DNA from: Halocafeteria seosinensis
Lineage: Eukaryota
Length of the DNA: 64,000 bases
Direction of reading: 5' to 3'
Assembly: GCA_001687465.1 (NCBI GenBank)
Contig: LVLI01000587.1
Location: forward strand, 1-64,000
In this document: positions 13,402 through 43,813 of the stretch, in pieces
Layout: the number at the start of each line of letters is the position of its first letter
How positions within the stretch are numbered: the first letter of the stretch is position 1
Program-made: the position numbers and the translations under genes
The notes under the pieces: generated by a model
Told to the model about the DNA's origin: nothing
Seen by the model: only the letters and a program-made list of their open reading frames with translations
The model's database searches: none

Positions 13402-13894
13402 GGCACTCTGGTGCGTACACCACGTGGTACACGTTACGGTATGCATTCCCCCAGGAAACATGGTGTTGATGACCGAACCTAACACAGAACAAGTGCTTCT
13501 AGAAAAGGGTTTCTGCTGATGCACGGGTTGCCTAGCCGACATCCGACAGCCAGAGGAAGAAAGAAGTAGGAGCAGTGCAAAAAATTCACCGTCTTTTCTA
13601 AAGATACTGAGCTCAGAACCATGGCATGGCCCACAAAGCAGAAATCGTCTTTGGCGGCCTTGCAAAGGACGCTGATGATGATAGGGGTTGCCTCAACCTT
13701 CATTGCTGTCCGTCCTCGCTTGATCGCTGATTCTGATTCTGATTCTGCTCAGGAACAACGGGACGTCCCCAGTCCCACTCAGCAGCAATGGATACATACT
13801 GTACCAGGAGTATATCCTGCTGGTTCGTCTCAGTGTGGCACTCTGGTGCGTACACGCCATTTATGCATTCCCCCAGGAAACATGGTGTTTATGA
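13402..13894 (+). repeat. Dispersed ~60-70 bp direct repeat
   Basis: ggcactctggtgcgtacac...atgcattcccccaggaaacatggtgtt.atga at 13402-13472 and 13837-13894. Confidence 0.85.
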
Positions 13895-14307
13895 GAGACG
13901 CCAAAATAGCGAATGATCGCCGGAGTGGACGACAGACTTGCCCCAGGTTCCCTAACTATGCTGAGCACATGATACTACTTGACTTGCATGGCTCGGCTTC
14001 CCCCAAGGAGAAGCCAGTGTTTGCTTTATTCAGTTTTCTCATCGCATCATTCCAGGTTTTCTGTTGGATTTGGAAGGTTTTGAATGATAACAGCTTGATA
14101 AATCCTGGAGCGGATTTCTCGCCAGTTACTAGTAACCCTTTGGAAAGGAGTCTTCACTCTTATCCGTTGCAGGGTAAGGGCCACTTCCGGACACTGATTT
14201 CGCCAGTACCACCGAATATAGAGACAAGGAGTTTGGAGTATCATCCATCAAATTTGGAAAAATCACTGGTTTACGCTGTGCAAAGTAGAACACTTAGTAC
14301 ATCACTA

Positions 14308-15858
14308 ACGAAGGCTTTGTTAACGTCATTGTTTTTCGGTTTGATCCTCTCGAGCGAGGGAACGGCAACAGCAACAGACTTACGCCCTGCCATTCTGAAT
14401 GGAACGGAATCCTGCTTTCGCTATAACTGGAACCAAAACCAGTTTGAAATGAATTGTAGTGTGCTGGTGTGGAGTGATCAGGGTTATGCGAACAACGACT
14501 ACATATCGCTGGATGCGAATGAGATCTTTGATGGTGGTCGACAGACCGGGCACATGAATGGAATAACAAATTTCGAAGGACTGTTTAAAATACTAGGAAG
14601 TGTTGCGTCGTTTAATCAAGCTCCCTTGATTCGGAATCTTGATGTTAGGAATGGATCAATTGCAGACTACGGTGGATTCATTGTCCAGCAACGGCAGAAA
14701 TTCTTTATCATAGATTCGTGTAGTTCATCAGGAAATATTACTTCCAAAGGAGGTGGTATATGTGGTTATCTGTGTGGTTCCAATCATGGCCAAATCAAGA
14801 TATCGAAATCGTATTCGACGGGGAGGATACTGGGTGGATCGGCAGGTGGTATTGCAGGATACTATGTTGGACACAATCATGGTATTGTCAATATCACCGA
14901 TTGTTATTCCACGGGGAATATTGAAGGAAAATGGGCAGGTGGTATTTGTGGAAATGCTGCTGGTCATACGAATGGTCAAGTGTATATAGTTCGTTCCTAT
15001 TCTACAGGAGACATCATTTCTAGTGGTCAATTAAGTGGTGGTATTGTGGGCAGCAATGCTGGTCATACCAATGGATTCGTTTATATTAAGGAATGTTATA
15101 GTGAGGGACAAATATCTGCAGCTTATAGTGGAGGAATTAGTGGACGTGATACAGCAGACAATGCGGGGGAAGTACAAATTAAAGATTGTTATACACGAGG
15201 AGAGATTAATAGCATACAAGCAGGGGGTATTACAGGAGCAAAGGCAGGAGGGTTTGGCTCAATGTCTACAGGGAACGTATACATCACAAATACGTATGCA
15301 TCAGGTTAAATCACTGGTCAGAATGCTGGCGGGATTATAGGAAGTATAGTAAATACAGCAAATGGTACTATTGAAGTGAAATATTCGGTATACGATGACA
15401 ACGGAGGAGCAGCGTCGATTGTAGGAGTGGATGATGGAGGCAATCTTGCGGAGACAGGAAATTCAGATAATTTGACATATATACAGGGACAACTGTACCA
15501 ACCGGGAGGATGGTCAGAGGACGTATGGACTCTAGATAGAGGGGGACAAGGTGTCGTTGATGACGGCGAGGAGAATCTGCCGATTCTACGCTTTCAATTA
15601 GCGCCGCCATCCCCTACTCCTTTACCCATGTCCACTCTATCAACGACAACGACAGGGTCGGAATCTAGCTCGGCTTCATCCTCTAGTTTTCCCACTTCTT
15701 CCCCGAGCTTGGCTCCATCTCCACACTCCATGCCGACACCTTTCCTGACAAGTAGCGCTTCTTTAACGGCGAAGCAAGCTCTCAAGATCATTGTGCTACC
15801 TGCTCAGAGACCCAAACGCACGGTAATAAGTTGCGATATTGAGCACCATTGTCGTTGA
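14308..15858 (+). pseudogene. Secreted Gly-rich GLUG-like repeat (beta-solenoid) protein with a Ser/Thr/Pro tail; disabled copy
   Basis: The signal-like KALLTSLFFGLILSSEGTATA follows ACG (14308) instead of ATG. Repeats of (C/S)YS.G.I....GGI.G follow. A single in-frame TAA lies at 15307-15309, after which the same frame continues ITGQNAGGIIGS into ORF 15376-15858. Confidence 0.75.
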
Positions 15859-17048: not shown

Positions 17049-20000
17049 ATGAACTCGGACAAGGGAGATAGAGCTCAGCAGAGGAGTTCAAACAAGCCGG
17101 CATTAAGTATCCGGCCCCCTTCATCGACGCCGACGCCGACGTCGTCGGCGTCAACTACGGGACAAAGTGAAGGAGCGGAAGGAGTTGAGGGTTCCGCAGC
17201 AACTGGAACCGAAAGAGAGCACACTTCCGATACACGAGAGAATGGAGATGCCGAGACAGACGGCGCCAGCACCGCATCATCTACCCCTAGTGTGGGCAAC
17301 GGAAATGGATCCCGGGATCAAAGCATTGTGCCCTTGGGAGCTTCGGAAGCGGAAAGTGATACTGAAGGCGGTGTAGATAGAACCGAAGGTTTGTTTCAGC
17401 AGGAATCAAATGAAGCCCGAGATCAGCATCAGCAGCAGGGAAATAATGGGGCAGGAATATCAGGGGCGGTCCAAAATGCATCTGCCTCGAGGTCCCACAT
17501 GGCTCATTTTCAGAGGTCTCAGGAAGAGAGCGTTCCCCAGCTCTATTTGGGCGATGGAAGCACTTTGGGTACAGACTTTGGGAGCGATACACCGTTTGAA
17601 ACAAATGACGAAACCATGGCAGATGGAATCTACATGGGTAACGGGGAAACATTGGGGTATGAAAGTGACGGTGGAAGTTCTAGGTCTGGGAGTAGATCGG
17701 AATCACCGCAAGGGTACACCTTGAACAAGTCCATTGAAAAGCCAAGCCTGGTTGGGCAGAATTGGGCCGAAACTAAGGCCATGTCGGGTATGCGGAAGCA
17801 GGAAAATGTTCGCAAGAGCAGCGATTTTCCCACTTTGCCAACTGGAGAGGTACAGGACGACAGTACTGTCCATAACCTTAGGGATTCCATGTACCAGTCC
17901 CAGGATGACAAACGTGCCTCTCAGAAAATGAATGAAGAAGATGAGGCTGAAGAAATTCCTGTTACGCTTCTTCGAGGCCATAGTTTCCTGAGACAGCAGC
18001 TCTCATCTAGCGATTTCAGCCATTACGAAAATCGAGAAGAATTCATGCATGTGGACTACACTCCAGCTATAAACCTCCGCCCTGTCGACCTTCATACTCC
18101 TCTCCGGACTATTCGAACAGGACGCACTATAAAGCTCAACGTATGCATCACCATGTACAATGAGGATGCAGACGAACTATCCCGCACACTTCGCGGGATT
18201 GCTGGAAACTTAACGCACCTGGAAGCGATAGGTATTCCATGGACTGACGTCCTTGTTTGCATTGTGGTTGATGGGAGACACAAGATGAACAATTTCACCA
18301 AAGAATATTTGAAAGAAATGCATGCCTACGACGAAGATCTTATCATCACAAGGCACAAGGACTGTGACGTGACATGCCACATATTTGAAAAAACTGTTGA
18401 GCTGAAAAAAGATGCGAACCAGCGAGAATATTTCCCTCCGATGCAGCTACTGGTCGGTGTCAAGGAGAAAAATGGTGGCAAGCTCAACTCTCACCTATGG
18501 TTCTTTAGTGGGTTCTCCAAACAGTTGCAGCCTAAGTACTGCCTCTTGGTTGATGTAGGTACGTGGCCAAAACCAAAGTCTATAATGTATTTGGTGAAGG
18601 CCATGGAGGACAATCCGCAATTAGGAGGAGTAACCGGCGAAATCGAAGCCACCGATGCCTCCAAGACGAACATTCTTGAAGCCGCACAATATTTTGAGTA
18701 TCGAGCGGGTCATATTCTGGATAAACCTATGGAAAGTAGCTTTGGGTTTATTTCCGTTCTCCCTGGGGCGTTTTCAGCATTTCGTTGGAAGGCCATTCGT
18801 GGAGAACCCCTTTCGGAGTATTTTAAATTGGAGGAAAATAATCCTTCCAAGCTTGGACCATTTGTTGCAAATATGTATTTGGCAGGTAAGTTGTAATACT
18901 GTTTGTCATCTGATGGTGCTCATTACTTACAAATTTCCTGGGCCTTGTGCCAATACCTACTTGTGGAATATTTACAGAGGACCGGTGAGTAGATCTGGTA
19001 TTCTGGAATCGTGATGGAGCTTTCCATAATATGAATTATTTTGCAGGATCTTATGCTTTGAGATTCTTGCGAAGAAAAATAAGTCGTATACACTTAGATT
19101 TGTTAAAGAATCAGCAGCAGTGACCGACATTCCAACCACGCTCCTTGAACTTACGAAGCAGCGAAGAAGGTGGTTGAACGGTGCATTCTTTGCCCTTCTG
19201 TTTTATATCTTTAAATTTTGGAAACTACTAAGTCGAAGCAGCCACTCTGTCGGACGACGCATTGCATTGATTATCCAGTTTGTTTACTTTCTGTCGCTCT
19301 TATTCTTCAACTGGTTTGGAGTCGTCTTGCTTTACCTCAGTTTCGTGCTAATTGTTACCATTGCGTTTCGCGCTATTGAGGATGATCAGCTTAGGTAGGT
19401 GATTATGGATTACAGGTGTTGCACTTGACAGTGGTTACTCTTTTGTGTGAACGACGCAGGACTGTTTTTAAATTTGCATTTCATGTGAGTTGTTTTCCTC
19501 TGATTCTCTACAAATACGAGTGTATCTACAGGGAAAGGTTGTCTATTGTTCGCGCAGATATTGTATTTGTGTTTGTCAGTAACCCAAATTCTGTTTGGTT
19601 TAGGCTCTAAGGTACAAGACGTTAGGAAGATTTATTTAGTTTCGTCTGGCGCATATGGCTCGCTAGTGGTACTCGCTTTGGGTTTGTCGCTGTGGCACGT
19701 CGCACAAGGAGTTAGTCCCGCTCTCTTGGTAATATCCCTGTCGGGTAAGTCAACTTGCTGTCAGTGTGTATTGCTATGCGTCAACTGGTATGCAATGTTT
19801 CCTGTACCAGGCTTCGGGACGTTCTTCATAGCTGCGTTGCTTTACGGCCGGTTTTTAGGAATGCTGTCAACCTTCCTTCAGGTACGTGATGGGCGTTTTG
19901 TCACAGCTTACATTAGACTCGTCTGGCAATAGGAAGATTTCCGCTCTTTGATTCCCAGTATCTTTTTTTGCTGCCGACTTTTCTTAACATTTTTACCGTA

Positions 20001-23000
20001 TACTCTTTCTGTAACTTGGACGATATTTCTTGGGGTATGTTGCTCTAACAACTGGTGGCCGAAGATGGGTCTTCTTGAGCTTGTCAATTGCAGGAACTAA
20101 AGAGGGAAGCTTACAGACTGCGCTGCAAGTTGCAAAAACAAAAGCCACACAAAAGGATGCCAAGCAATATTTGACCGGTGATCCTGAGCTTTCGGAGGCA
20201 CAAAATGAGGTTCAGGAACGGATTCGCAAATTAGAAGAAGCTGCTCAGCAGGCGACGAAGCAAACGAAGCATGCAGGCAAAATGGGTAGCACTGAAGTAG
20301 GAAATGCCGCTGAAGAAAGAGATCCTACTATCTCAATGCTTCATGCGGCTGAAGAGGCGGAGGAAGACGAATTCATGAGGAAATTAGAAAGGTAAGGAAA
20401 CTGGAAAGCATAAATATTCACATCAGTGTACCTATATAATAGCTCTTGGAAATTCAGACGGAAAGAGAGGCTCAGACGCGAACAAGAGGAGCTCAAGCAA
20501 GCATTCTCGGCGTTTCGGACACGTATACTAAGCTTTTGGGCATTCAGCAATTTGTAAGGATGGAATGAATGTCCTCGTTACTCACCCGAAACTGTTATTC
20601 ACTCCTTGCAGTTCTGTTGCGGGCACTGTACTTGCGTTTGACCTCATCGGAGAATTCGGCTGGTTCATCGCTGGAGCTGTTGTCTTCCAAATGTCATATC
20701 GCCTTATCGGAACGCTTTGGTACCGGTTCGAAGATCCTGCTAAATGGTTGTGGCACCTTCTTTTTAGTTGGTGGTGTGTATGCATTACCTGTCCTTGGGA
20801 GCGAACCCGTATGTTAATGCGCAAGCGGGTACGAGACAGCGGTCGGGTTCCTGCTCAAATGGTTCATCATGTGGGCCGGGTCAAGGGGGAAAACTTGAAG
20901 AAAACTCAGGAGGAGGAAGAAGCTGGAAGTGGCGCTTCAAAGAGTGACGCCAAAGGTGACGAGGAACAAAGTCAAGAGAGCAGTGATAGCGAGGACGATG
21001 AAGAGGAACAGCCTTATAGGAGAGCTAGCTTGGCTGGGTACGCTGGGTATGGAATTGTTCAAGAGAAACCAAGCGTGGACCCGACTACTGGAAGGGTTCG
21101 TCGGCAGTCGCAAATTCTAGGCTGGGATCAAGAGCTAGATGACGATGCTCGAAAAAGCATAACTGGTAAACGGACTAGCATCTTTGATTCCGGAGGGCCT
21201 AGCAGAGAAGGTCGACATTCTAGATTTTCTCTCTCCTTGAAGGCTGCACCCGTTCAGGAAAATCAGCAGAATATCCCCGGTGCCAGACAAGGTGAAACAT
21301 CCTATGAGGAATACGATATTACTGATATTCCAGAAGGGCGCGAGGCGAACAACGAGTCAGAACATCCAAAACATCCTCTGCCGGTCGCCGAGAAGCACAT
21401 CCGTAACGTGCCATCTGGAGGCTATCCCTCAATGTTTTCCACAGCCTCTTGCACCAGTGAGGATTTGGAAGCGTGCTTACAAGAAGGAGAAGCCGTTGCT
21501 TCTAGCATGGCCCGTAAGCTCGGTGGCAAACAAGGTTCGGGCGACGGTGTTGGACAAGAACTCCCAACGTATAAAAGCCTTTCGAACGCCCAACTTCGCA
21601 ATAAACTGAGTGGAGACATGCACCCCTTGTGGCCAACAAAACAGAACAGAGATGGTGAGGCCGGAAAAGGAGAACGCCCCGCCGCTTTCGAAAACTCTAG
21701 CGCCAAGTTTTCTTCTATAGACTTCAGTCAGTTTGGAAACGACCATCGCATCGAGGAGGAACGTGGTTCCTCAAAGTCAGGAAGTTCCAAAGGTGAATCT
21801 CCATCCTCAACTGGTGATACCGATGGGGACGACACAGAGAGCTCGGACGAGTCGTTTCGGCCCATGGCCCAACAGCGGCTGCACAGTTTTTTGCGGAGGC
21901 GATTGAGTTCCTCGGAGTTGAGCTACGATGAAACCGACGACGAGTTTCTTTCTCTGGACTACACTCCTGTTACTGCTCGGCGACCATCTGGTACGTATTT
22001 TCCTGCTGATGTTTGTCACGTCAACAACGCGCTTGTCAAATAAAATGAGTCCTGCAGATATCCCTACTCCGCTTCGTCCCACTCGACTGAGCCGAAACAC
22101 TGAAATTCTGATGTGCCTTACTTTCCATGCTAATCAGAGTGTCGCAAATTTGAAGAAGTAGGTGTTACACGCTTCCCATAGTTACATTATATCGCTTCCT
22201 TTTCCTACGTTGTTCGCTGTTATTTTATCCAGGAGTGTCAATACGGTCGCGGAAAACATTACACGTCTGCAACGAGCGGGAGTTGACTGGAAACACGTTG
22301 TTCTGAATATAATTGTCGACGGACGCGTTGACCTTCCGAAAGAAGCAAAAGAGTACTTAAGAGATACCCTCAAGATTTATGATGAAGACATGCTACTTAT
22401 GGTACATCGCGGCAACGATGTCCTTGCTCATGTGTTTGAACGTAGTACCCGCATAGCACGACATCGGGCAACTGCAGAATACCACGAACCATTACAGCTC
22501 CTGCTTACGGTCAAGGAGCGACCGGGAGGACTACTCAATTCTCATCTTTGGTTTTTCGGTTTCTGCAAGCAAATCAAACCCAAGTATTGTTTCGTGATTG
22601 ACACAGGGACCTATCCGGGATCATATTCCGTGAAAGCATTATATGAAGCGATGGAACTCGATCCCCAGATAGGCGTTGCTAGCGGTGAAGTCAAGCCATA
22701 CAACGCACGACTTTACAGTTTGGTCCAAGCCAGTTCAGTGTTTCAGAACAAACTCAGTCACATTTTGCAAAAGCCAGCGGACTCGTTCTCGGGCTTAGTG
22801 ACACCATTTAGCGGTTTCTACGTAATGTATCGCCTGATTGCTATTGAGGGAGACCCTTTGGACCAGTACTTCCGAGTTGAGGAAGAAGGGCTTAACAACT
22901 TTACGCCATACATGGCCAACATGTATTTGACAGCTGAACGGCTTGTGAATTTTGAGACGGTATTGAAGTTCCACGAGAACTGGACTTCTCGGTATGTTGC

Positions 23001-24988
23001 GGATGCTGAAGCGGAACAAGAAATACCGAGAAGACTAGTTGATCTCATTGCCAGTCAGCGTCGCTTTATGAGTGGATCTATACTAAATTCTATCTATTAT
23101 CTTCAGAATGTGTGGCGGGTTTGGATTGAGTGTTATCACTCTTTTTCGCGGAAGTTTATGTTGACGATCCAAGTCATGATGAACATCCTGTATATCCTGT
23201 TCATTTGGTTTTCTCCTGCTTTTATGTATGTAATATTTTTTTACATATTCAAGACGTCAGTGGCAGGACTAGGATTTGGCACCGACATCATAACGTTTCT
23301 GTTTCACGCCATCTACCTGTCAACGACCGCTCTTCAAATAATTTTCTCCATGTCGTCGAGACCGGAAGACATCGAACGGATCTTCTTCACGTCTACACTG
23401 ATTTACGGTGTGTTTATGTACGTCGCGTTTGGACTCTTTATCCTATCTTCCCTGCGAGGTAGTTTCACGGAACTGTTCATGTATTCCCTGGCGGTGGGGC
23501 TTGGATGCCTAATTTTCGGCGCTTTCCTTCATGGGTCCTTCATTATTATGGTAGTTACTTTCTTGCAGTACACCTTTATGTTGCCGACTTATGTCAACCT
23601 GTTTATGGTGTACTCGTTCTGCAACCTTCACGATGTGGCCCTGAGAATGCAATTCACGGAGGGGTCAATCCAGCTTTTTGCAGCTCAAGCACGAACCGAG
23701 ATGCAGGAAAACAGTAAAAACATCAAAATGTATACCGGCAAGAAGCGCCCTTCAATCATTCTGCAAGAGGCAGAAACTAAGCTGCACCAGCTGCAAAATG
23801 CAAACTGGTTTGAAAACGATAAGCCCGACCGGCCGCCCAACGTGTTGAAAAAGGAAGAAGATAACGAAAGCGTTGGCCCTTCATCGATTGTTCCTAACAC
23901 ATCTACCAATGCCGTGCACGCAAATCCTCAAGCAATTTTGGAAAGAGCTTACCAGGCAGCAGAGATGAAACGAATCGAAGAGCGGGTAAAAGAGTAAGTA
24001 GGTTTGGGTGCTTCTGTTTCCGTTAATTTTATCGCTGGTCTTCTTTTCCCGTTGCAGGTTTCAAGAAAAGATCAAAGATGTAAGGCATATTCCACTTTAA
24101 ATGTCTACCAGACAGGTGCTTGTATATATTGTTGCTTGTCGTACAGGAGAATAAACGACTTCAGTCAATACATGCCTCGTTCCGTACCAGGGTTCTTGGC
24201 ATTTGGCTATTCACCAATTGGTATGTAGGAATTCAGATGTTGGCTAAAGAGTGTTTACGATATTGAACGCGAAATCCGATCTTTGCAGGATGCTCGCAAC
24301 ACTGATCAATGGAACAGACAATATGAGACTGGGGGCAACTACCCTTATCTCGATAATAGTGGTAGTGCTCGTTCTACGCATAATTGGCTCCACGCTTTAC
24401 AAGATTGACGTAGTGACGAGAAACTTGTGGACGTACCTGTTCGCCTGGTGGTGCTGCAGATGCCCTTGGGAAACGCGGAAAGTGCTTTCCTTAAAACGAT
24501 TCCGTCGACAAGTGGACACAGGTCATACACCTCAAATGGAAATTGACACGACGGACATAGATGACGCTGCCAGTGACGATAGTGATAGACAGTACCAGGG
24601 TCATACGTTCTTCTCATTTCGAGGCTACCCCGAAGTTGACACTGAAGATTACCCTGAGGAAGATGATGGCGACATTGAAGAAGGATCTGCCTCCACAACG
24701 GAGCGCTCCACGCAGGACATGCCCACCGAAGGAAACGTAGATGTCCAAGTCGATACTGGAGACCTGTCGGACTTGGTCGATGCTGAAATGCCCCCAACGT
24801 CACCAAGGCGAGGTTCCGCTCCTGGATGGGCAACAGCGAGAGAGGACTACGGACAGGATGAAGATGTCGATAGCGAGAGTACTTATTCAGGTGACTCCAT
24901 TGGGCAATTGCTTGAAGAAGCACAAGAGGTAGTTGATCATGCGACCGAAACGTTAGATGCTCGTCAAGTCTCCAACGACCGGTACTAG
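17049..24988 (+). CDS. Tandem double chitin synthase (GT2, fungal/oomycete division-1 type): active module plus degenerate module, ~2326 aa, 15 exons
   Basis: Exons: 17049-18885, 18978-18984, 19047-19394, 19460-19484, 19558-19744, 19811-19881, 19959-20034, 20094-20391, 20458-20553, 20612-21990, 22058-22157, 22233-23993, 24058-24079, 24147-24220, 24289-24988. All are GT-AG and phase-compatible; the total is 6981 nt. Module 1 has TMYNE, DGR, KEKNGGKLNSH, DVGT, VLPGAFSAFR, LAEDRILC, QRRRW and SWGTK. Confidence 0.88.
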
Positions 24989-26053: not shown

Positions 26054-27062
26054 TTTCCTCGGATTGCGCAGCGAAAAAAAAAGTGGTATAGCAATAAAGT
26101 TAGCAGGATAACCGGGATTTTGCACGTCAAAAAGTCGCACCGGATACCAGGACCTTTGCGGGATTGCGTTTAGAGCAAACTTGTGCCACTGCCTGCACCA
26201 CTACCGCTGGAAAACCCACTGAAGCAACAATCCTCTTCGTCTGTACGTTCTATAGTTGGTGAATGGGAGCAAGCATCCCCAGTAACCATACTTGTGAAGT
26301 TGCGATCTCTTTCCGCCGGAAAGTTTCCGCTGGGAAGCCCAGTGCCACTGAGTGTGGTAATAGCGGACGGTAATCCGGCGAAAGAAGGATAGCACTTGCT
26401 GAGATCCGCAAGTAAAAATGCGTAGACCATGTTTCGACATTTCTGTGGTTTTTATAGTATGTAGTTGATGAACGAGGATGTATTTCAGAATTCCCTGCAG
26501 AATTCCCGGTATTGCCGATATGAACAAACTAATGAGTTAGCTTAACACGTCGCATGCATGCATATCCATATAGCGTAGATATCAAATCGTATGTGAGTGC
26601 CTGTTCTCTACTGTGGTCTTTCTGAAACAATACCGTCATTGAACTTCCGAATCGCTTCTATACCGTAGACTACAACCACGTACAGTAAGTGCGTGTAGGA
26701 ATTATTTCGCGCGTAATCCGTGCATAATCCAATGACATCAAGCAATGCAATACGAATCCTTTTATCCAAAAAACTTACTTACTTTGTACCCACCGCATCC
26801 ATTCACCGTTGCTTGAAGTTGCCTGGCAATCTCCTTCCGGCCAAAGGAAGTTCCTCGGGGTGGTGTTATTACCTTCACAAACAATTCTGTAAGACAGTGT
26901 AAGAACTTTAGGAATTGTAGGGATCCATAAGCCTTAGAATTCTCTTTTTTTTTTTTTCGCGTTCGGTCGGTGTCGATTCTTTTTTCATATGGATCCGTAA
27001 ATCGCTTAACCTGCGAATGTAGACTGTGAGTGGATGCATGGAGGCGGTGCATCATCATCATC

Positions 27063-30000
27063 ATGGATCAGTACTGCGGCGGAGGAACGCAGTGGCGATA
27101 TATTACAATAGCCCTTCGCAACGCAGCCACGGGCTCCTCAGAGACCAGTACTGAATATTACCGTTACGGAGGGAAGGAATCTGTGGGACATATAGAAGGC
27201 AATGCATTACACCAGCCTCAGGAGAGCGATGGAGACCCAGGGGCTGTCATTGACGCTTGCGCCGGTCTGACATTGATACAAGCCAGTGCCATCGTGCATT
27301 TCTTGTTCATTCTTCAGGTGTTGGTTGCATGGTCTCTGTGGCCGATATGCAAGCGCAAATACTCTGGGGTTGTGTCCTGGTGCTCCTATCGCCGACCCAG
27401 GATGTCAACGCGGCGGGGGTCGTTCGACGACGATGAGGAATACGCACGACTGAAGGAGGAATTACAATCGTCATACAGTCCGCGGGGATCCATTCAGCTC
27501 CATGAACGAGGCACGATCGATTTCGAAGAAGGCAGTGAGGAGGACTCTATCCCACGGCATTTGAGTTACGAATTCCAGGAACCCAACTACACTTCCTCGC
27601 CCCACGAAGGACCGAGAGCGACACTCTCCTCCATCGGAGAAAGCACACACGAGGAAGAGGAAAGTACGGATGAGTATAGCAAAACTGCTAATTCTGTAGA
27701 AAGTCCGGGATTGCGCATACAGCTTCCCGATGCAGCTTCTAGCAAGTCCACGGCGTCGACTGGGTCAGCAAAAGGCAATGTCAAAGTAGATGCAGCTGGG
27801 AACACTGGAGCAAGTGATAGAGCTGGGTTTGTGAGTTTTTTAGCCATGTCATTAGGTTATGGCCTTTGGGCCGTCATCGGCATATTAGGGATGACGACTG
27901 CTAGTAATTCTTCGCTGCAAGGGGAAAGTAAAGGGGTTCACACTGCATCGACAAACCAGGTTCCTTTTCTTATGAGCTACTATGGTACTTCGTTCGGAGG
28001 AGGAATCTTGGGCATATGTGGGCTCATCGTATGTGCGCGCGAAGGGACAACAAAACCTGTTCAGGGGTTCCTCTTCAAGGCAAGTTTCGTCTTGCCATGC
28101 CTGTTTTTCGCAATGTACCTCCATCGGCTAGGTGAATTATCTCATGGTTATACCGTCGCTCAAGGGGGAGTAGTAATAGGCAAGCAAGATACAGAGCACT
28201 CTTGGGCTCTGTCGACAACTTATTGTTTTATTTGCATGGCGCTCTTGGCAACCGAAACCAGTAGATTCATTGGAAAGTCGCGGCAGAACGATCCGCATTG
28301 GACGTACACATATTCGGAATGGATTACCTTTTCCTGGCTGAGCCGCCTTATAAATATAGGTGAACAGCGACAGTTGGAGGAGCGAGATTTAGATCCACTG
28401 CCAGATCCAGAAGCTACAGTGCCGTGCGCCCGCCGCTTCGAGAACGAGGTCTTCAGGTTACGTTCCACTCTCCGTGACAATGCCTCCATTACCCACGTTA
28501 TTTGGAACCTATACTCATGGCCATGGTTGGCTCTCGGTCTCTTGCAGCTCCTTAATGCTGCATCTAGCTTCGCTGGACCACTGCTTATAAAGGAGTTGTT
28601 ACAGTTCCTACAAAGCTATCCGGGAACACCTCTTGAAGGAAAAGGACAAAGCAGTAACGGAAAATGTGCATTCGCTAACGCTAGCAACAGTCCATGGATA
28701 GCACTCATGGTAGGAATCGCGATGTGTCTCAATGCCGTCGTCTCGGCTGTGAGCCAAACTCAGTTCGGATATAATGTTGCTAAGCTTCAGACACGGGTGA
28801 GAGCTGGTCTATTGAATACCATCTTCAAAGTTGGGCTAACTATGTCTCGTTTCGATTGGCATTATCTATCTCGTTTGGAGTCGGTAGATGATGGCTCGTC
28901 ATATTCGAAGCAAGACGAGCATAGTTGCGCACATTGCGGTAGCGTTTCGGGTACATTGGTAAATTTGTTAAGCGTTGATACGCAGAAAGTTCTTACTGCT
29001 CTGTCTTCGCTGCATCAGCTTTGGTCACTCCCCGTGCAAGTTGTCGTGACGTTATATTTACTTTGGCTTCAGGTATCGTGGGCGTTCTTTGCAGGACTAG
29101 GTGTGTTAGTCATCTTCTTACCAATCAATCTTTTTGTAAGTAAGCGCATCGGAGATTTGACTCGGGAAATGATGGAATTCCGGGATGAGCGTCTTAGGGT
29201 ATGCGAAGATGCCCTTAAGAATATGAGCCTGATAAAGATGCAAAGAGTAAGTATAACGCTCTGATACAACAATGAAAGGCGTATCGATCACTGTTCTCTT
29301 GTCCCAAGTTTGCAGTTGGAAGTTCATTTCAATCAGCGTATTAAGGCAATACGTGAACAGGAGGTTTCCAAACTAAAAGCCAGAAAATATTGGGACGCCC
29401 TGTGTGTCTATTTATGGGCAGCTACTCCGGTACTTGTATCCCTTGCAACTTTTGCGTCCGCAGCACTTAGCGGGCACATGCGGACCTACGACGATTCATC
29501 CGCAGACAAAAACCTTACCACTGCCGAGGTTTTTACTTCTCTTTCTTTACTGCAAATGCTGATTGTTCCCATGAATGCGTTTCCATGGGTGATCACTGGA
29601 ATAATGGAAGCTCGAGTCAGCGTCAAGCGCTTCAATCGCATCTTATTTCATGCAAACGTTCTAGATATTCTCTTAGGGGAGTCCAAAGGGCAGTTGTCCC
29701 AGGAACACTTAGTGGTACCCTGGTCCAGCATTGTGTGGCCAAGCGAGGCCGCAACCATACATTCCGATTCAATGGATCACAATCCTAGCTTTGTACTCTC
29801 GATTCCTCAACAGATCACACTCAATACTGGTGAGCTTGTGGTAGTGGTAGGCCGAGTTGGCGCCGGGAAGACTGCTTTTCTGAGAAGCCTTTTCGCGGAT
29901 ATGCTAAAGGCTAACAGCAATGAGAGCTCTTTTGTCTCCTTTGCGAGCTATGCACCTCAGCGTCCATGGATTCGCGAGGACTCTGTCTACAGGAACATAA

Positions 30001-32660
30001 CCTGCTGTGGACCCCATCTGCAGCATGAAGCTAATTACTTTCGAGATGAACGTTATGGGTTTGTCAAATTCTGTACCGCCTTGGAAGAAGACATTGAGGA
30101 AATGCCTTTCCTGGATCGGACCAATGTAGGAGAGAAAGGAAGCACACTATCTGGTGGACAGCAGCAACGCATTGGGATTGCGAGGGCACTATACAGCTCT
30201 TGTTCAGTCCTGATTTTGGACGACCCGCTTTCAGCGCTAGATGCCTTCGTTAAGGCACAGGTGCGAGATCATGCTATTCTAGGAATTGACACCGAGGAGT
30301 TCGCTGGGTTGTCAGCGAACAAAAAAGGCTCTCTGGTCAGAAATCGAACAAGAATCGTTGCAACTCATGAAGAGAGCGTCATTCAGCGCTGTGATAAGAT
30401 TATCGGTCTCGAAAAAGGTACTCTTATCTTCACCGGCACAAGGAAAGATTTCTTTGATGAAATAGAGTCTTCAGATTTGGCATCTCGGCTAGGAATCAAG
30501 TCCGAGAAACTATTCCAACCGGTTACAAAGGAGTTCAGCGGAAAGAGTCCTATCAACGTACGTGACAAAGTTAATGGTGACACCGCCCCCACTTTCCTCG
30601 AAGAGGAGGAAGAAGACGCTGAGGAATTTCGAGAAGCGGGACATATTTCACTGCATGTTCTTGGCGTCTACATACGAGCGATGGGGCGAATAGTAGTTGT
30701 ATCACTTTTATTGTTTTTATTTTTAATGCAAGTCACGCGTAACGGAAGTGATTACTGGTTATCTCAGTGGTCTGACGCGCTTCCATCTGAAACGGACAAT
30801 TCCAACGGCGGATCTGCCCAGCATAGTAACAGACCGTGGGTTCGGCACCAGTGGTCTTCAACACAGTTTCTTCATGTATACATTGCCATTGCAGTATTCA
30901 ATACTGTATTTACAGTTGGTAGATCCTGGCTCTTTGCTTACGGAGGTGTGCAGGGCGCGCAAAAGATGCACAATCAGTTGTTGGAAAGCGTGCTGGTTGC
31001 AAAGATGCAGTTTTTTCAGAAGAATCCCGTGGGACGAATACTCAACAGGTTTAGCAGCGATCAGCTTAATGTGGATGAAACCCTTCCATTCCAGGCGAAC
31101 ATCTTGCTTGCCCAGCTATTTGGCTTACTCGGGACTTGCGCCGTCATTTTGTACGCGTCAACGGGCTGGCTTTTTTTGGCCGTTTTACCAATAGGATTTC
31201 TTTACTGGAGAACTCAAAAGCGATACAGATTCACATCACGTGAATTACGTCGCTTGGAATCCATACTAAGGTCTCCATTGTATTCTCATTTCGGAGACTG
31301 TCTTTCCGAAGAGGGATCGGCTGTGATTCGTGCCGGTGGGCCATCCCAAGTTAACCGAGAAGCTGACAAGCTGTTGGAGCTAATAGATAGAAGTCAGCGA
31401 GCGTGGTTTGCGACAAATGCAGCGGTCCAATGGCTAAGCTTTCGTCTCCAGTGCATTGGGGTACTTGCCATTTCTTTCGTGGCAGGGTTTGCTGTATTTA
31501 GGAGACTATACCGAGTCGATGCTGGGGATGCTGATTCATCCAGCACAAACACGGAGGCAGGGGCAGCAGGTTTGGCTCTTAGTTACGCTCTCCCTATTGT
31601 AGATTCTCTACAGGGGATATTAAACTCGTTTGCTGAAACCGAGAAGGAGATGGTTAGTGTCGAGCGGCAAAGCGAGTACATCAAGGATGCAAAACCTGAA
31701 CAGGACCCTACCGTTCTCTTTGGCCATGAGGATAACCGTTGCTGCGATTGTCACCTCACTATGTCTCCGCGTACGAACAGCCGACGCATGTCCTGGAGTC
31801 AGACGGGAGATAGTCTCGCATCGCCGCTGCTGGAACACGAGGATAATGTTTCGGATAGCTCAGTGAAACGCTCGCTGTTAAGTGTACGTGGGCTGTACGT
31901 GCGATATAAGGATCCAATGGAAACGGAGGTTCGTGGGGTAAAGGGTAATCTTGCGTGGGTACTGAAAGGAATTTCATTCGATGCTGAGCGAGGGGAACAC
32001 ATAGGCATTTGTGGGAGAACGGGTAGTGGTAAGAGTACCATATTTTCGACTTTGTTTCGCCTCGTTGAACACAGCCATGGACATGTATTTATTGAAGGTC
32101 AAGATATTTCAGAACTGTCCTTGTCTTCTCTACGTTCAAAAATATCGATAATCCCCCAAGAGCCGTTGCTCTTTGAAGGAACGGTTGGAGACAATTTAGA
32201 CCCGGAACATTCCTTACCCACAAATGACCTCCAAGTTGCACTCGAAAAATGCAAAATCTTAAAGAACTCCAAAAACGAGGAAGGTATCGGCAAATTCAGC
32301 CTCGACGATTATATAGCGTCTTCTGGGAGCAATTTGAGCATGGGCCTCCGACAACTCATGTGTCTTGCTCGCTGTATCTTGCAACAGCAGAGCTTGGTGT
32401 GCATCGACGAAGCGACAGCCAGCGTGGATAGCCGCACTGCTACGCACATGAATGGCATCATTCGTTCCGTTTTCAAGAAGAGCGGGGCCACTGTTATAGT
32501 AATAGCACACCGCCCAGAGTCCTTATTTCAATGCGACCGTCTTCTGGTTATGGAAGGCGGAAAAATAATTGAAACTGGTGCTCCGGAATCTCTTAGCAGA
32601 GATACGGCCTCCGCCTTCTACCACATGTACGGGCGAAGCCATGGGGTGAGCTCCTCATAA
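27063..32660 (+). CDS. ABC transporter subfamily C (MRP/ABCC10-like), full-size, 2 exons
   Basis: Exons 27063-29246 and 29316-32660. The N-terminus is MDQYCG..W and there is an ITFSWL linker. NBD1 has GRVGAGKT/LSGGQQQR/ILDD; NBD2 has GRTGSGKS/LSMGLRQ/IDEATASVD; NPVGRILNRFSSD is present. Confidence 0.92.
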
Positions 32661-35393: not shown

Positions 35394-37337
35394 ATTCCTG
35401 TGGCCTGTACTTTGAATACACGAAATGAAGGTGCGATATACAAAAGAGTTCCTCACTGAGTAAGATGGTACAGTACAGGAGGAACCAAACTGTTGGAGAA
35501 TCATCTTTTTTCTCGTCCTCTGGTGTTCATGTGCTCCACCGAATGGATTCAACTGCTGGAATTCCAGTTCGAAAATCGAAATGTCGACAATCGCTGCGGC
35601 CAGAATTGTACCACACCCCTCAAAATCTGGGAGCGCGGCCAAACTTGTGTGCAAGCTACTCACTAACCCATCCATCGAAAACAATACGTATCTCGTTCCT
35701 TTTTAAGTAAACAAGTGTGCGGACGTGCGAACGTGCGAACGTGCGGACCTCACATCTTGAGTCAGTCACCGATTCCGGGATTCACCGGTTTGTCACTGTC
35801 GTTAACTATTGAGAAACAACGGACGAGGACGCCTACTGCTCTGAAAGGTCAAAGAGGGACCACAAAACGCCGCCTTGTACAATTTGTATATTCTTAACTC
35901 AAGGTAGCGTTACCGCAGCAAAAGCAAGGTCACCTTCCAAGAGAAGCGATCAACTTACTCAGCTATACGGGGAGTTCTTGGCGAGGGCAGATGTCGTTTC
36001 CGGCCTTCTTGGCTAGGTGGTATACACGGGTTACGCTTTCGGGATTGTTTGAAAGCGTTCTGCCCAGCTACGCGACGAATCACACTCTTGAGATGGTACC
36101 GCTAAAGCTAGCATCGATATTCGATTGCGGAGTCTAAAGAGTACCGATATCACCTTTGTCTAAGTCGCTTATATGCTCGGGAACCACGGGAAGGCCACAA
36201 TGTCACTGAGCTAGGAGCGCGGAGTAGCGAAAACAGGCACCAACTGTTCCAGTAGACAATAACCTGGTATCCTTTATCAGCTGGCCGCTGTTTTGACGAC
36301 CTGTTAAGGTTAGCTGTCGGACACCATACACCAATTGCAACAGGATGTATCAAATAATGAAACTTGTACCGATAAGTGTTCTTCGCTCCAGTTTATCACA
36401 AGCTTTTTAAGGCATCAAGGTTTGCGATACGAGGCAACTTATGGACGGAGATCAGAGATACTGTATATGCAGTTCAACACAACCTGGAAACTTGAAGACG
36501 CTCTCCGCCTTTTGCTTGTGTTCGGGTTCTACAGGGAATCCAGGGATTCAGATTCGCCATTGAAGCTGCCCGAAAGGAGCAACGATCCAATGTCCCACGG
36601 AAATGTGCAAATTTCTAGCGCGAAGGAGGATCCTGCTGAATAAACCTACCATGGTGAGCATCACTCCACGAGCCGACGCTGCCCACGGCGATAAACTGCC
36701 CATGTTGATTTAGCCATGGGACGTAATCCCCGCATAGATGTGGTTTTAAGCTGCATGCACAAGCACGGCTCGGTGGCCCTCCACGGGTCCTCTATCCATG
36801 GAATAGCGATCTCTAACGGGCGGACGATCCGGTCGCGATCGGGGCGACCCGATCGGGTCGGCGGCCGAAATCGGGCAAGTCGCACTCATCATGAACTGGG
36901 ATTCTGTCAGCGTAAGAACAGTTCCGAATCTAGTTAGCATTGTCGGTCTAATTCAGGAAATACTAACGCTCTTACATGGGTCTTTGAGAAATCCGAAATA
37001 CGGAGGCAGAGAAAGGTAACTTTTGAAGACTTGAGCAAGCATCATGTCGAGCATGATGATATGTGTTGTTCTTAGAGAGCACGTATCGCAATCGCTGTTT
37101 GCCCTTGCAGATCTATCCAAAGAAGAGACCTCGAACAAAAGTTTCCCTTGTCACCCACAGACGCATATACGCTGCACCTCATTCAGTCAACGCTACTGCT
37201 TCGAAAACTAAAGGGCCCTTTTCTAAGATTGCGTCCTAACCCAGAACAGTCCGCGCAACGGTATTCTTTGCAAGCGAGAATATCTTGAGAGCTCGAAAAC
37301 CTGTTTCGCTTTTATTGCTCGTATACCAGTGGAAACG

Positions 37338-40300
37338 ATGAGCGATATCGTGCAAGGGAACCCGCTTGCCCATGTGAAAGGAGGAGAATCCAAGTCGCGG
37401 CAGCACAAGAACGGCTCAAGGATGACTTCAGGAACAGATACTATGTCTGTTGAAACAAAAAATCCTTTGCACAATCATAAAGAGCAGACCGAGCGAAACG
37501 TAAATTGTTTGCAATCCTCTACTCCTAGGTCAACCGGTTCCACAAGTAACGGATGTGTAGAAAAGACGAATCCGGTTCACGACGCTCCACAAAATGAAGA
37601 GCAGAAAGCAACTACACCGCGGTCCCGCATGGGAACAACAGACTCGTCTCAGCTTCCTGTACAAGGCGACGAACAGCCAACAACTACTACCGAGAAATCC
37701 CGCTCCTTCCCCACAGATAACGAGAGTGTGAAAACCAACTCGTTTCCCCCCGATGATGAGTTCACTGAGAAGGGGGAAAAACACCCTAGAACGAGTTCTC
37801 AACCTTCCACAAATGCCGAAAGCCCTTCTTCCACAGGCACAAGGAAAGCAGGTCCACGAGACTCACAATTGCGATATCATGCTTTGGAGGTGCGTGCTCC
37901 AAGCGCGTTTCCGGCGGCCCGAGGCTACATCCACGAAGGTCAGTACATTCACCATGCGGCATGTCTGCTGAAGCGTTTAGATGACCTCTTTACATGTGAG
38001 TATTTTTGCAGAATTTGAACGAGAAAAGGATTGGAGAAGTGGAAAGCCTTTAGGGAGCTCTTATGACAAGATGATTGACGATACGATCTTTCGAATACTG
38101 AGAGTGCTATTGCTATCTTCCCTTTGGCTAATTACTCTAGTAGGGCTTACTAGTAGTAAACTCGCTCTCTTTGCTCTTGGAGACAACTATCACCGTATCC
38201 TCTTCCATGAAGATCTTGCTGTTAAACGGGAAGGAGATGAATTGTGTAAACTTCGAGCTGCAAGTCAGTGGGCCCTAGTAGGACCCGCAATACTTCAGTT
38301 GATATTCGCCTCGGTTATGTGGCGTTGCACCCAGTCTCCTCATCGTGAAGAAAAGCGAAAGCAACGCGAAACTCACGAGTGGGCAGTAGCTCATGTTAGG
38401 GAGGAACAAATAAATACTCAAGCGTTATGGTGTGGTAAGCGACAGAAAATCGTGGAATTCAATTCCGCTAGCTTGTGCTAAGCACCATTCTCTTGCAGAT
38501 AGTTTTCGATGGCGTTTTGGCGGCATTCGGAAATGCATTCTTGCAACTTTGGATATTACCCCAGGAGAACTGGCTTTGGGTTTCATTGGGTATGATGTTG
38601 ATCCCCTTTTTCTCCAACGTAACGGGTGCTATATTTCGCCTTTGTGTTTCAAAGAAACACAAATTGTCGAGGACACACAAATCCTCGGTAAGTAGTTCCC
38701 GGAAGAAACGAGAAGCAGGTGATATCGTTTCTGTGTGCTGCCAGACAGCTGCGATAAGTTGCGCAGCTGCAGCGACAGTAGCTGCCAGTAATGGATCCGT
38801 GGATGGTAGATATTTGTTAATTCCTGCTACCCTGTTTGGGGGAATCAGTATTCTGCACACTCGCTGGAGAGATAATCGGAGTCCCCGTGCTGTTCATAAT
38901 GCGATTACCTTGGGCAGCCGTAAGAGAGCGCGATATCGGAGAGCAACTGTCAAGCTCACTGTGGAAGTTCTAATTACAATCCTTATATCAAGTTACGCCA
39001 AGGATCCACCATTCCGTGCAACAATAGCAGGAGGTGGCTGTTCCAGTTGGAGCATGTGGAATTTTCCGTTGCTTGTGCAGAATTCATATATGGTTTTGGC
39101 TGTCATTCACGTGCTCGGCTCCATCGTTGCCATTCAGATGATCAAGTTTGCGTGTGCGATTAAAATGAATCTAGTGGGAGTGGCCCTACCTTTAATACTA
39201 TTTTGGCCTTGTTTGCTGCTTTTTGCTTGGAAGACTGAGAACAGTTTCCAGCAGCCGTTTACTTGGGGTTCCCGCCAGTTCGATGCAGGAAATGAAGCTC
39301 TTGTTATTCTTTCGTTTGTGCTAGCATATATAGGGCATGTATGTATGGGAAAGCGTCATTCCGGTCTTGCGGCAGGTCTCTCGATTTTTTCTTATATTTG
39401 CAGCTCTGGAGGACGAAAGACGTTTGCTATGAAGAAAGTACCGCGGTTTGCCCCGACTGGGAGCTGTGGTACCAACCCGTGTTCAACACGCTCGTACTTG
39501 AAGGAAGCATCCTATATAATCGTGGAGACAAAGAGTCCAAAGAAAGTATGCGTCCTGATTACCAATCGGGGACAGTACCGAGTGCTGCCGGAAAGGACTC
39601 GAAGTCACCCTGTTCGCACAGTTCGCAAGAGGCTTCTCAAGTCGCCAATATTGCTGCATCATCGCTGCTTGTTGAACGACCTCCTCATCGAGTGGTTATG
39701 GCTACATGCATGTGGCATGAAAGTTACGTTGAGATGCAGCAATGGATAACTTCGATCGGAAGAGTTGCCCAGTGCGTAATTGGGAGTGCTAGCAGGTACG
39801 GGCATGTACTCACGTGTCCTTCAAGACACCTTTTAGTTAGCTATTCTATGATAATTCAATTGCAGATTTTACGTGTCGTCTACTGGAATCTACTCACGCG
39901 ACACTTATGAAGCGCACATAGTATTCGATTCGGCATTCGACAAGCGCACCAGTGCTCGCGGCGATCATTCACGCAGGGCAAACGAGCATGTTGAGAATCT
40001 GCTCAACGTTATTTCCAAGAATCTACAGCCGCTTCTCGAAGAGAGTATAAAAGCCTTAAAGGGTCTGTTGAATGAGAACTGGTATTCTCCCAACGATGCC
40101 AATGCTAGAGAAACCTCCGAAAATATTTCTACGAAACTTATTGCCAGCCAGGAGTTGACAGAATATGGCATTCGGCTTCATGCCAACTTGGTACCTGAAG
40201 CAGCTCAGAAGCGTATCGCCAAGCTAGTTGATAGAGCCATTAATCGTAGTAAGAAGCCAGACAGACCCGTCTCTGAAGCTTTGGAGAAGAGCTTACGGAA

Positions 40301-43139: not shown

Positions 43140-43813
43140 TATATGTGTCCAATACCACTTTGCAAGCGCTTAGGCATTACTCAGGTGACTATCTAGGAAC
43201 GCGCACACTAGTTCAGGCGAAATCACCACTTCGACTGAGTACTTGGCTAACAACGAGGGAAACCGGGATCAAAATTGCACACGGTCACGTACAGTAGTAT
43301 ATCGCAAACAGTAATTATGTGACAGAAGGCGCCATACATTCCCCCTTATGTTCCCATTAAATCCATAGAACTACAGAGAATAGCCTGGAACCTGGTTTAT
43401 AGTATATACCCTGTACTGGGGAGTAGCACTTCTCGAATACCAGGTGACACACCGGGTATTTTTTGCTTAAATAACTCCTAATGCTGGATCGACTTCGGGA
43501 AGATTTAACGCTTTGCTGTCCAGTGCCGCACATAGATTAGGACCTACCAGTAGGATTGAGTAGGATCAATACTAATACACTCATTAACTTGGTGATAGCT
43601 CGAATTTGGCAACGTCTTAGCCGTTTTTCCCGACAATCTTTCTGTGCAGATCTGTTACCTTTGGCATTGCAAATTGGCAACGAAGACACACACACACCGT
43701 GACACACGCAAGACAGTGTCTATTTCGACACTGTTTGGCTTGGTTTGTATCGACACGACATTGTTGGAAACTATGGCTAGAGCCTTTTCTTGGCGGCAAA
43801 ACAGACAACAGAC

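What the first reader, a model, noticed from the sequence alone, without database searches (positions are those of the whole stretch)
17049..24988. Single-chain chitin synthase + pseudo-chitin-synthase tandem (covalent enzyme/pseudoenzyme pseudo-dimer)
Seen: the stop-free exon 20612-21990 carries the last TM helices of CHS module 1, a long acidic linker and the start of a second full CHS module, so the two modules are one ~2326-aa ORF. Module 2 keeps the fold scaffold (DGR, NSHLWFF, KYCF, LPTYVN..VYSFCNLHDV, FRTR.L..W..N). It has lost most substrate-binding and catalytic motifs: TMYNE to TFHAN, GGKLNSH to GGLLNSH, VLPGAF to TPFSGF, LAEDR to LTAER, QRRRW to SQRRF, SWGTK to ALRMQ. Its frame and splice sites are nonetheless intact. 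Established: EDR supplies the catalytic base and QRRRW binds product in GT2 chitin synthases, and structurally studied division-1 CHS are homodimers. Inference: an obligate asymmetric dimer in one chain, in which the dead half acts as scaffold, regulator or second translocation channel, so each unit would extrude one chain. I do not recall this architecture being described.
Basis: partly seen in the sequence, partly recalled or inferred. Interest (0 to 1): 0.9.

Follow-up and report, generated by a model that had tools for sequence, protein, structure and literature searches.

The report
Chitin synthase fused to dead twin
A protist gene, read as one spliced transcript, joins a chitin synthase with intact catalytic motifs to a second, conserved copy that has lost them and is likely inactive; that copy likely acts as a built-in dimer partner, so each unit would spin one chitin chain instead of two.

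Summary
Confirmed and extended. Fifteen exons (17049-24988) give one stop-free 2326-aa protein with two whole division-1 chitin synthase (CHS) modules, 33% identical. A transcriptome protein matches it at 2298 of 2326 residues, and two runs show all 14 splice joints with an unbroken linker. Module 1 keeps 12 of 12 catalytic marker residues; module 2 keeps 2, yet folds as a full CHS (pLDDT 88) and is under purifying selection (allelic pN/pS 0.09). New here: a second double CHS paralogue of the same layout (P0233), five more module-2 fragments, and a tree placing tandem duplication and fusion before the paralogues split. Module 2 is most conserved in TM1-TM3, IF3 and TM5, which include the dimer contacts of Phytophthora Chs1. 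Best reading (0.5): a covalent enzyme/pseudoenzyme pseudo-dimer. Contact between the modules, inactivity and one-chain output are inferred, not shown. No paper search found the architecture; the scan's earlier notes hold nothing like it.

The parts
17049..24988 (+). Whole gene, 15 coding exons: 17049-18885, 18978-18984, 19047-19394, 19460-19484, 19558-19744, 19811-19881, 19959-20034, 20094-20391, 20458-20553, 20612-21990, 22058-22157, 22233-23993, 24058-24079, 24147-24220, 24289-24988; 2326 aa
17049..18005 (+). Low-complexity N-terminal region (aa 1-319); most variable part between alleles (12 of 28 amino-acid differences to P0001)
18006..20831 (+). Module 1 (aa 320-1055): division-1 CHS, GT-A domain, IF1-3, TM1-6, all catalytic motifs intact
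18978..18984 (+). 7-nt microexon inside the catalytic LAEDR motif of module 1
   Evidence: letters between the joint in X2 and X3, table 5c
19159..19173 (+). QRRRW motif of module 1
20612..21990 (+). Bridging exon 10: end of module 1, linker, start of module 2; covered in all three spliced runs, no joint or loose end inside
20832..21902 (+). Linker (aa 1056-1412, 357 aa, rich in D/E, S, G, K/R): former C-tail of copy 1 plus N-tail of copy 2; holds motifs (YAGYG..GWD.E, L..CL.EGE.VA) that recur in P0233's linker and tail
21903..24502 (+). Module 2 (aa 1413-2165): full CHS fold with degenerate active site
22120..22134 (+). TFHAN, in place of TMYNE (uridine pocket)
22927..22941 (+). LTAER, in place of LAEDR: Glu to Ala at the PsChs1 E495 position, catalytic Asp to Glu
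23053..23067 (+). SQRRF, in place of QRRRW
24503..24988 (+). Acidic C-terminal tail (aa 2166-2326) with a copy of the L..LL.E.. motif of the linker

Best explanation
One transcript encodes a CHS module with intact motifs fused through a 357-aa linker to a conserved, likely inactive CHS module, and the second module likely fills the place of the partner protomer in the usual CHS dimer, so each unit would make and export one chitin chain. Steps. (1) Shown: tandem duplication of a whole intron-bearing CHS gene and read-through into one ORF; the fused gene later duplicated (P0001, P0233). (2) Inferred from motifs: module 1 binds UDP-GlcNAc, polymerises and exports chitin; module 2 cannot. (3) Shown: module 2 keeps its fold (predicted model) and is under purifying selection, most strongly in TM1-TM3, IF3 and TM5. 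(4) Inferred: six TM helices per module put both linker ends in the cytosol, so the linker can span; module 2's TM2, TM2-TM3 loop and long TM5 would swap with module 1 as in the PsChs1 homodimer, giving the enzyme a fixed partner for folding, stability or traffic, and a new conserved outer surface.
For: Single ORF and transcript. Loss of catalysis: module 2 keeps 2 of 12 marker residues, P0233 module 2 keeps 5 of 12, while 151 of 178 aligned cores keep all markers present; PsChs1 mutants at the equivalent sites lose activity (E495A about 95%, D496A and W742A all, E432/Y433/P454/R536/W539 greatly; PMC9556331 sections 7-8). Motif positions vary freely among module-2 relatives (DVGT is DTGT, DSGV, NTGT, GPGV, EAGV; W of QRRRW is F, F, N, Q, Q). 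Maintenance: 6 non-synonymous v 20 synonymous allelic changes, pN/pS 0.094, P 2e-8; AlphaFold2 pLDDT 87.8 with a 63-residue TM5 helix; Foldseek TM 0.68-0.76 to all solved CHS. Where it is conserved: between paralogues module 2 keeps 58 of 93 residues in TM2+TM3+TM5 (module 1: 51 of 97) but 28 of 80 in EDR-IF2 (module 1: 58 of 80; P 3e-6); across four module-2 rows loop+TM2 and TM3 are about twice as conserved, relative to the mean, as in seven active relatives. PsChs1 dimer contacts are TM2 and the TM2-TM3 loop against TM5. History: two introns shared by position and phase; module-1 and module-2 clades are sisters (UFBoot 87; SH-aLRT/UFBoot 95/96).
Against: No experiment or model here shows contact between the modules. 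A 357-aa linker allows pairing between different chains as easily as within one. PsChs1 keeps its activity when dimer formation is impaired, and its protomers are not cooperative, so a partner is not needed for catalysis. PsChs1's dimer also relies on SP and MIT subdomains that the paper finds only in oomycetes. Most module-2-specific invariant residues lie at the TM1 end, outer loop, TM2 and TM3 and differ from active CHS, which fits a new binding partner as well as the old interface. Regions were drawn by me after seeing the alignment. Three of five module-2 rows keep the catalytic-base Asp. All transcript evidence is short-read assembly, and the runs are one study.
Confidence: 0.5

Rival explanations
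1. Chain-linking scaffold: modules pair between chains (module 1 with module 1, module 2 with module 2, or crosswise with the paralogue P0233 or the free pseudoenzyme P0003), so the dead module strings synthases into rows or patches that set fibril spacing.
For: The linker is long and low in complexity (357 aa). Module 2's TM1-TM3 surface is conserved among module-2 copies and differs from module 1, as a self-pairing surface would. The same transcriptome has two double genes and a free pseudo-CHS. CHS oligomers are thought to order fibrils (PMC9556331 discussion).
Against: A tethered partner has a high local concentration, which favours pairing in one chain (inference). No evidence of higher-order assembly was obtained.
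Confidence: 0.22
2. Module 2 is a tethered sensor or anchor: it no longer uses the dimer interface but binds a ligand or another protein (nucleotide, nascent chitin, a wall or trafficking protein) and so regulates or places module 1.
For: DGR is invariant and a new invariant patch (29 positions rare in active CHS, mostly TM1 end to TM3) has been fixed.
Against: The uridine pocket (TMYNE), the Lys of GKLN and the channel-entrance residues are variable among module-2 rows, which argues against a kept substrate or product site. TM5 and IF3 stay as conserved as in module 1.
Confidence: 0.15
3. Module 2 is still a glycosyltransferase with changed chemistry, for example making a primer or a different glycan.
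For: DGR, Arg of EDR and two Arg of the IF2 motif are invariant; the base position is Asp or Glu in all five rows.
Against: The second Asp (DVGT) is D, D, N, G or E; Gln and Trp of QRRRW, the gate Pro and SWG are lost and vary; the EDR-IF2 region is the least conserved part of the GT side between paralogues.
Confidence: 0.08
4. Two neighbouring genes or a decaying duplicate, joined only by assembly or rare read-through.
For: Only short-read contigs were seen; the tool warns that a contig across two genes shows no single transcript.
Against: No stop ends module 1 before intron 10; the bin holding intron 10 has exactly half the exon depth in all three runs, so no retained-intron contig is seen; a second paralogue has the same fusion with a homologous linker; pN/pS 0.094.
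Confidence: 0.05

Closest known systems
Phytophthora sojae Chs1 (PDB 7WJM/7WJN/8K52), division-1 chitin synthase homodimer
   Same: Each module has the GT-A domain, IF1-3, six TM helices and long TM5; module 1 has every motif listed in PMC9556331.
   Different: PsChs1 is a C2 dimer of two active chains, each making a chain. Here two modules sit in one chain and the second has lost the motifs; it has Ala at the E495 position, as in the engineered mutant 7WJN. No MIT domain hit in Pfam.
Yeast ScChs1 and Candida CaChs2 (division 1)
   Same: Same fold (TM-score 0.68-0.74); TM5-based homodimers (PMC12653383 passages).
   Different: Single module per chain, both protomers intact.
Cafeteria roenbergensis chitin synthase (P0005; Bicosoecida)
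   Same: Best-scoring named relative of module 1 (43%), with long low-complexity tails.
   Different: One intact module only. Its place next to the double genes in the tree is weakly supported (39-59).
EXT1-EXT2 heparan sulfate polymerase
   Same: A glycosyltransferase pair in which one paralogous domain (EXT2 GlcA-T) is inactive yet pairs pseudo-symmetrically with its active twin (bioRxiv 10.1101/2022.06.19.496623 passages).
   Different: Two chains, Golgi-lumenal, non-processive, unrelated fold family; no membrane channel. An analogy of logic only.
Recombined CHS class with a duplicated QxxxY motif (PMC5122149)
   Same: A described CHS with an internal rearrangement (passage).
   Different: One motif duplicated in a single catalytic unit, not a second whole module.

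Membership tests
Division-1 chitin synthase (GT2), module 1 | Pfam Chitin_synth_1 (PF01644) above cut-off | tested here: met
   143 bits v cut-off 25; two stretches in P0001
Division-1 chitin synthase (GT2), module 1 | TMYNE, DGR, K(L)N, DVGT, QxFEY, VLPGA, EDR, QRRRW, SWG motifs | tested here: met
   12 of 12 marker residues; 75 of 76 positions that are 90% conserved in 166 other CHS
Division-1 chitin synthase (GT2), module 1 | Makes chitin from UDP-GlcNAc | not testable with these tools
   no assay possible
Active chitin synthase, module 2 | Catalytic and product-binding motifs intact | tested here: not met
   2 of 12 marker residues; 46 of 76 conserved positions
CHS fold, module 2 | GT-A domain, three IF helices, six TM helices with long TM5 | tested here: met
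   predicted model pLDDT 87.8; Foldseek E 1e-32 to 1e-38 to solved CHS
Pseudoenzyme, module 2 | Kept under purifying selection after loss of catalytic residues | tested here: met
   allelic pN/pS 0.094; 43-59% identical relatives with the same losses
Pseudoenzyme, module 2 | No catalytic activity measured | not testable with these tools
   inferred from PsChs1 mutants
CHS dimer (PsChs1/ScChs1 type) | TM2 and TM2-TM3 loop of one protomer pack on TM5 of the other | tested here: inconclusive
   these helices are conserved in module 2; contact itself was not observed
Oomycete CHS with MIT/SP subdomains | N-terminal MIT domain | tested here: not met
   no PF04212 hit in P0001 or P0233 at E 0.001

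The most novel reading that the evidence does not exclude
A lineage of heterotrophic protists has turned the symmetric CHS dimer into a hard-wired half-active machine, and uses a small family of such fusions plus a free pseudo-synthase to set how many chitin chains leave per unit and how the units are spaced, thereby programming a thinner or differently packed fibril. It would be the first pseudoenzyme subunit built into a processive polysaccharide synthase channel complex of the CHS family.
Probability: 0.3. Interest if true: 0.85.

Novelty: new variant of a known kind. Interest (0 to 1): 0.7.

Why it matters
Solved chitin synthases are symmetric dimers, and it is proposed but untested that making two chains side by side drives fibril assembly (PMC9556331, PMC12653383). 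A natural one-chain, half-active version separates dimer architecture from paired synthesis and gives a direct test: compare the product of this protein with that of a version in which both halves are active modules, or with module 1 alone. It also shows that GT2 synthases can keep dead paralogous subunits, fused or free, which automatic annotation counts as ordinary enzymes, and it points to chitin structures in flagellates not known to have them (noted for Cafeteria in PMC7852580).

Tried and rejected
Complex prediction of module 1 (aa 538-1028) with module 2 (aa 1634-2140): no answer, score 0.26 against a mark of 0.34, alignments not used, controls not folded; no evidence either way. No whole genome is held for the window. 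No run is on record as RNA; X2-X4 were read as transcripts only because they skip the introns; X1 spans the window in one piece and may be its source. Contig depth rises toward the 3' end but cannot rank parts of a gene, so it was not used. Searches for genomic loci of module-2 relatives in metagenome contigs found none (77 and 55 pattern matches, 0 confirmed), so fusion in the relatives' DNA was not read; equal contig lengths (P0073 and P0139, 16,476) are only a hint. My first argument that low TM4+TM6 conservation (13 of 56 v 35 of 55) proves a dead channel was weakened: TM4 is as variable among active relatives. A notebook entry that lists P0124 and P0136 as degenerate is wrong; they have intact motifs. 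Long tails of P0005-P0009 and P0013 hold no second module. Paper searches that found no double CHS: 'pseudoenzyme' (1 unrelated paper), 'two chitin synthase domains' (0), and 'two catalytic domains' (15 of 32 listed, titles and abstract starts only, mostly chitinases). Earlier scan notes by sequence, words and place gave nothing related.
Full report
Observation. I rebuilt the gene from the window. Fifteen exons between 17049 and 24988, with 14 GT..AG introns of 58-92 nt, give a stop-free 2326-aa protein. It holds two whole chitin synthase (CHS) modules, aa 320-1055 and 1413-2165, 33% identical over 768 columns (E 3e-154), and Pfam Chitin_synth_1 and Chitin_synth_2 each match twice.

One transcript. 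A search for longer relatives returned P0001, a 2326-aa transcriptome ORF labelled complete; it differs from my model at 28 of 2326 residues, with no gaps. A second allele, P0075, has the same length. Of four runs that hold the DNA (one study, none on record as RNA), X1 spans the region unspliced and may be the window's source, while X2 and X3 show all 14 joints, including the 7-nt microexon inside LAEDR, and X4 shows 6. The bridging exon 20612-21990 is covered in all three, with no joint and no loose end inside it; the bin that is half intron 10 has exactly half the exon depth (13.7 v 27.4, 21.5 v 43.1, 6.8 v 13.6), so no contig retains the intron whose stop could end module 1 alone. These are short-read contigs and may come from the same culture as P0001, so they are not independent, and long reads are still wanted.

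Module 1 looks active, module 2 not. Against 12 marker residues taken from the motifs in PMC9556331 (sections 6-9 read, plus passages), module 1 keeps 12 and module 2 keeps 2, the Asp of DGR and of DxGT; 151 of 178 aligned cores keep all markers they cover. Of 76 positions that are 90% conserved in 166 other CHS, module 1 keeps 75 and module 2 46. In PsChs1, E495A loses about 95% of activity, D496A and W742A all of it, and E432, Y433, P454, R536 and W539 changes greatly impair it; module 2 differs at every one of these sites, and carries Ala where the engineered mutant 7WJN does. Inactivity is an inference from these data.

Module 2 is maintained. Allelic differences listed give 6 non-synonymous and 20 synonymous changes in module 2 (pN/pS 0.094, binomial P 2e-8), against 1 and 15 in module 1 and 7 and 9 in the linker. 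The tables were cut (40 of 115 rows, 40 of 48), I used 69 distinct exonic rows, and two changes in one codon were counted apart. AlphaFold2 folds module 2 with pLDDT 87.8 and a 63-residue TM5 helix; its best structural matches are all solved CHS (TM 0.68-0.76).

The architecture is old and occurs twice. Searches found module-2-like fragments at 42-59% identity (P0073, P0091, P0092, P0074, P0212), all with degenerate motifs that vary from row to row. The cluster of P0092 holds P0233, a 2177-aa complete ORF with the same accession prefix as P0001. It is a second double CHS: module 1 intact and 57% identical to module 1, module 2 degenerate (5 of 12 markers) and 44% identical to module 2. The linkers are homologous (33% over 165 columns), and a linker motif recurs in the tail after module 2, as expected if a whole gene with its tail was duplicated head to tail and read through. 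Two introns share position and phase between the modules. In trees the module-1 and module-2 clades are each fully supported and are sisters (UFBoot 87 with 35 rows; 95/96 after dropping 8 partial or long-branch rows), with a long branch at the base of module 2. So duplication, fusion and loss of catalysis came before the two paralogues split. Among 232 held proteins with a CHS core, 82 of them 1279 aa or longer, only P0001, P0075 and P0233 are double; P0233 was hidden behind a short representative, so other doubles may have been missed. The same transcriptome also holds a free single-module pseudo-CHS, P0003 (5 of 12 markers). The best named relative is a Cafeteria (bicosoecid stramenopile) enzyme, but tree support for that link is weak, so the lineage is only a likely stramenopile flagellate.

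How it most likely works. Solved division-1 CHS are homodimers; in PsChs1, TM2 and the TM2-TM3 loop of one protomer pack on the long TM5 of the other, and each protomer makes its own chain without cooperativity (review passages, PMC12653383). The channel is lined by TM1, TM3, TM4 and TM6 with the IF helices (PMC11546553 passages). Between paralogues, module 2 keeps 58 of 93 residues in TM2+TM3+TM5 (module 1: 51 of 97) but only 28 of 80 in the EDR-IF2 region (module 1: 58 of 80). Across four module-2 rows, loop+TM2 and TM3 are about twice as conserved relative to the mean as in seven active relatives, TM1 and IF3 1.4 times, EDR-IF2 0.7 times. Twenty-nine positions are invariant in module 2 but rare in active CHS, most from the end of TM1 to TM3. 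I drew these regions after seeing the data. With six TM helices per module both linker ends are cytosolic, so pairing in one chain is possible. I therefore favour a covalent pseudo-dimer in which module 2 is a structural partner (0.5). Rivals: pairing between chains into arrays (0.22), a tethered sensor or anchor using the new surface (0.15), a changed transferase (0.08), two genes or decay (0.05). A second channel is disfavoured by loss of the entrance residues, although the TM4 argument is weak. Against the best reading: contact between modules was not observed, and PsChs1 stays active when its dimer is impaired.

Novelty. Six full-text searches (listings and abstract starts) and passage searches in two CHS surveys (PMC5122149; PMC3942024) found no tandem CHS with a dead second module. 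The library lacks most subscription papers, and I did not read supplements, where domain tables of such surveys or genome papers could list it. The nearest logic is EXT1-EXT2, with an inactive paralogous domain (passages). In Cafeteria, chitin synthase rises in stationary phase and its role is only speculated on (PMC7852580 passages). I rate it a new variant of a known kind, interest 0.7: the architecture is secure, repeated and selected; the mechanism is inferred.

Noticed in passing
window about 37230-43139 (+): A second, unrelated chitin synthase with intact motifs (YQKFEYASGHW, CCPGCFS, QGEDRW, QRRRW, SWG), only 24-28% identical to the finding's modules; only Pfam Chitin_synth_2 hits, and the motifs look division-2/animal-like (label recalled).
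   Followed up: partly
P0003/P0076 (not in window): Free single-module pseudo-CHS of 1629 aa in the same transcriptome (TVSHE, SPTSG, ADQR, FRRPH); it does not group with module 2, so catalysis was likely lost separately.
   Followed up: partly
P0094 (not in window): Unnamed 1164-aa single-module CHS with partly degenerate motifs (QAGN, GLSGE, TEDE, ARKRY); groups with P0003 at 86, possibly by long branches.
   Followed up: partly
window 18978-18984: A 7-nt microexon splits the catalytic LAEDR motif; skipping it would shift the frame. No skipped form was listed.
   Followed up: partly
window 13570-15858, 43781-46909, 47908-48822 (+): Three related Gly-rich repeat proteins (GGIxG units) with Ser/Thr-rich tails, likely surface proteins; no Pfam hit for the three ORFs scanned.
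   Followed up: no
window 27030-32660 (+): ABC transporter with two membrane and two ATPase domains in two long ORFs separated by an in-frame stop at 29262-29264, probably an intron.
   Followed up: no
window 62565-63197 (+): Guanylate-binding-protein type GTPase domain.
   Followed up: no
window 20730-20810 and 24410-24470: A Cys-rich WWC..CPWE motif follows TM6 in both modules and, in similar form, in P0233 and P0005; possibly a lipidation site (inference).
   Followed up: no
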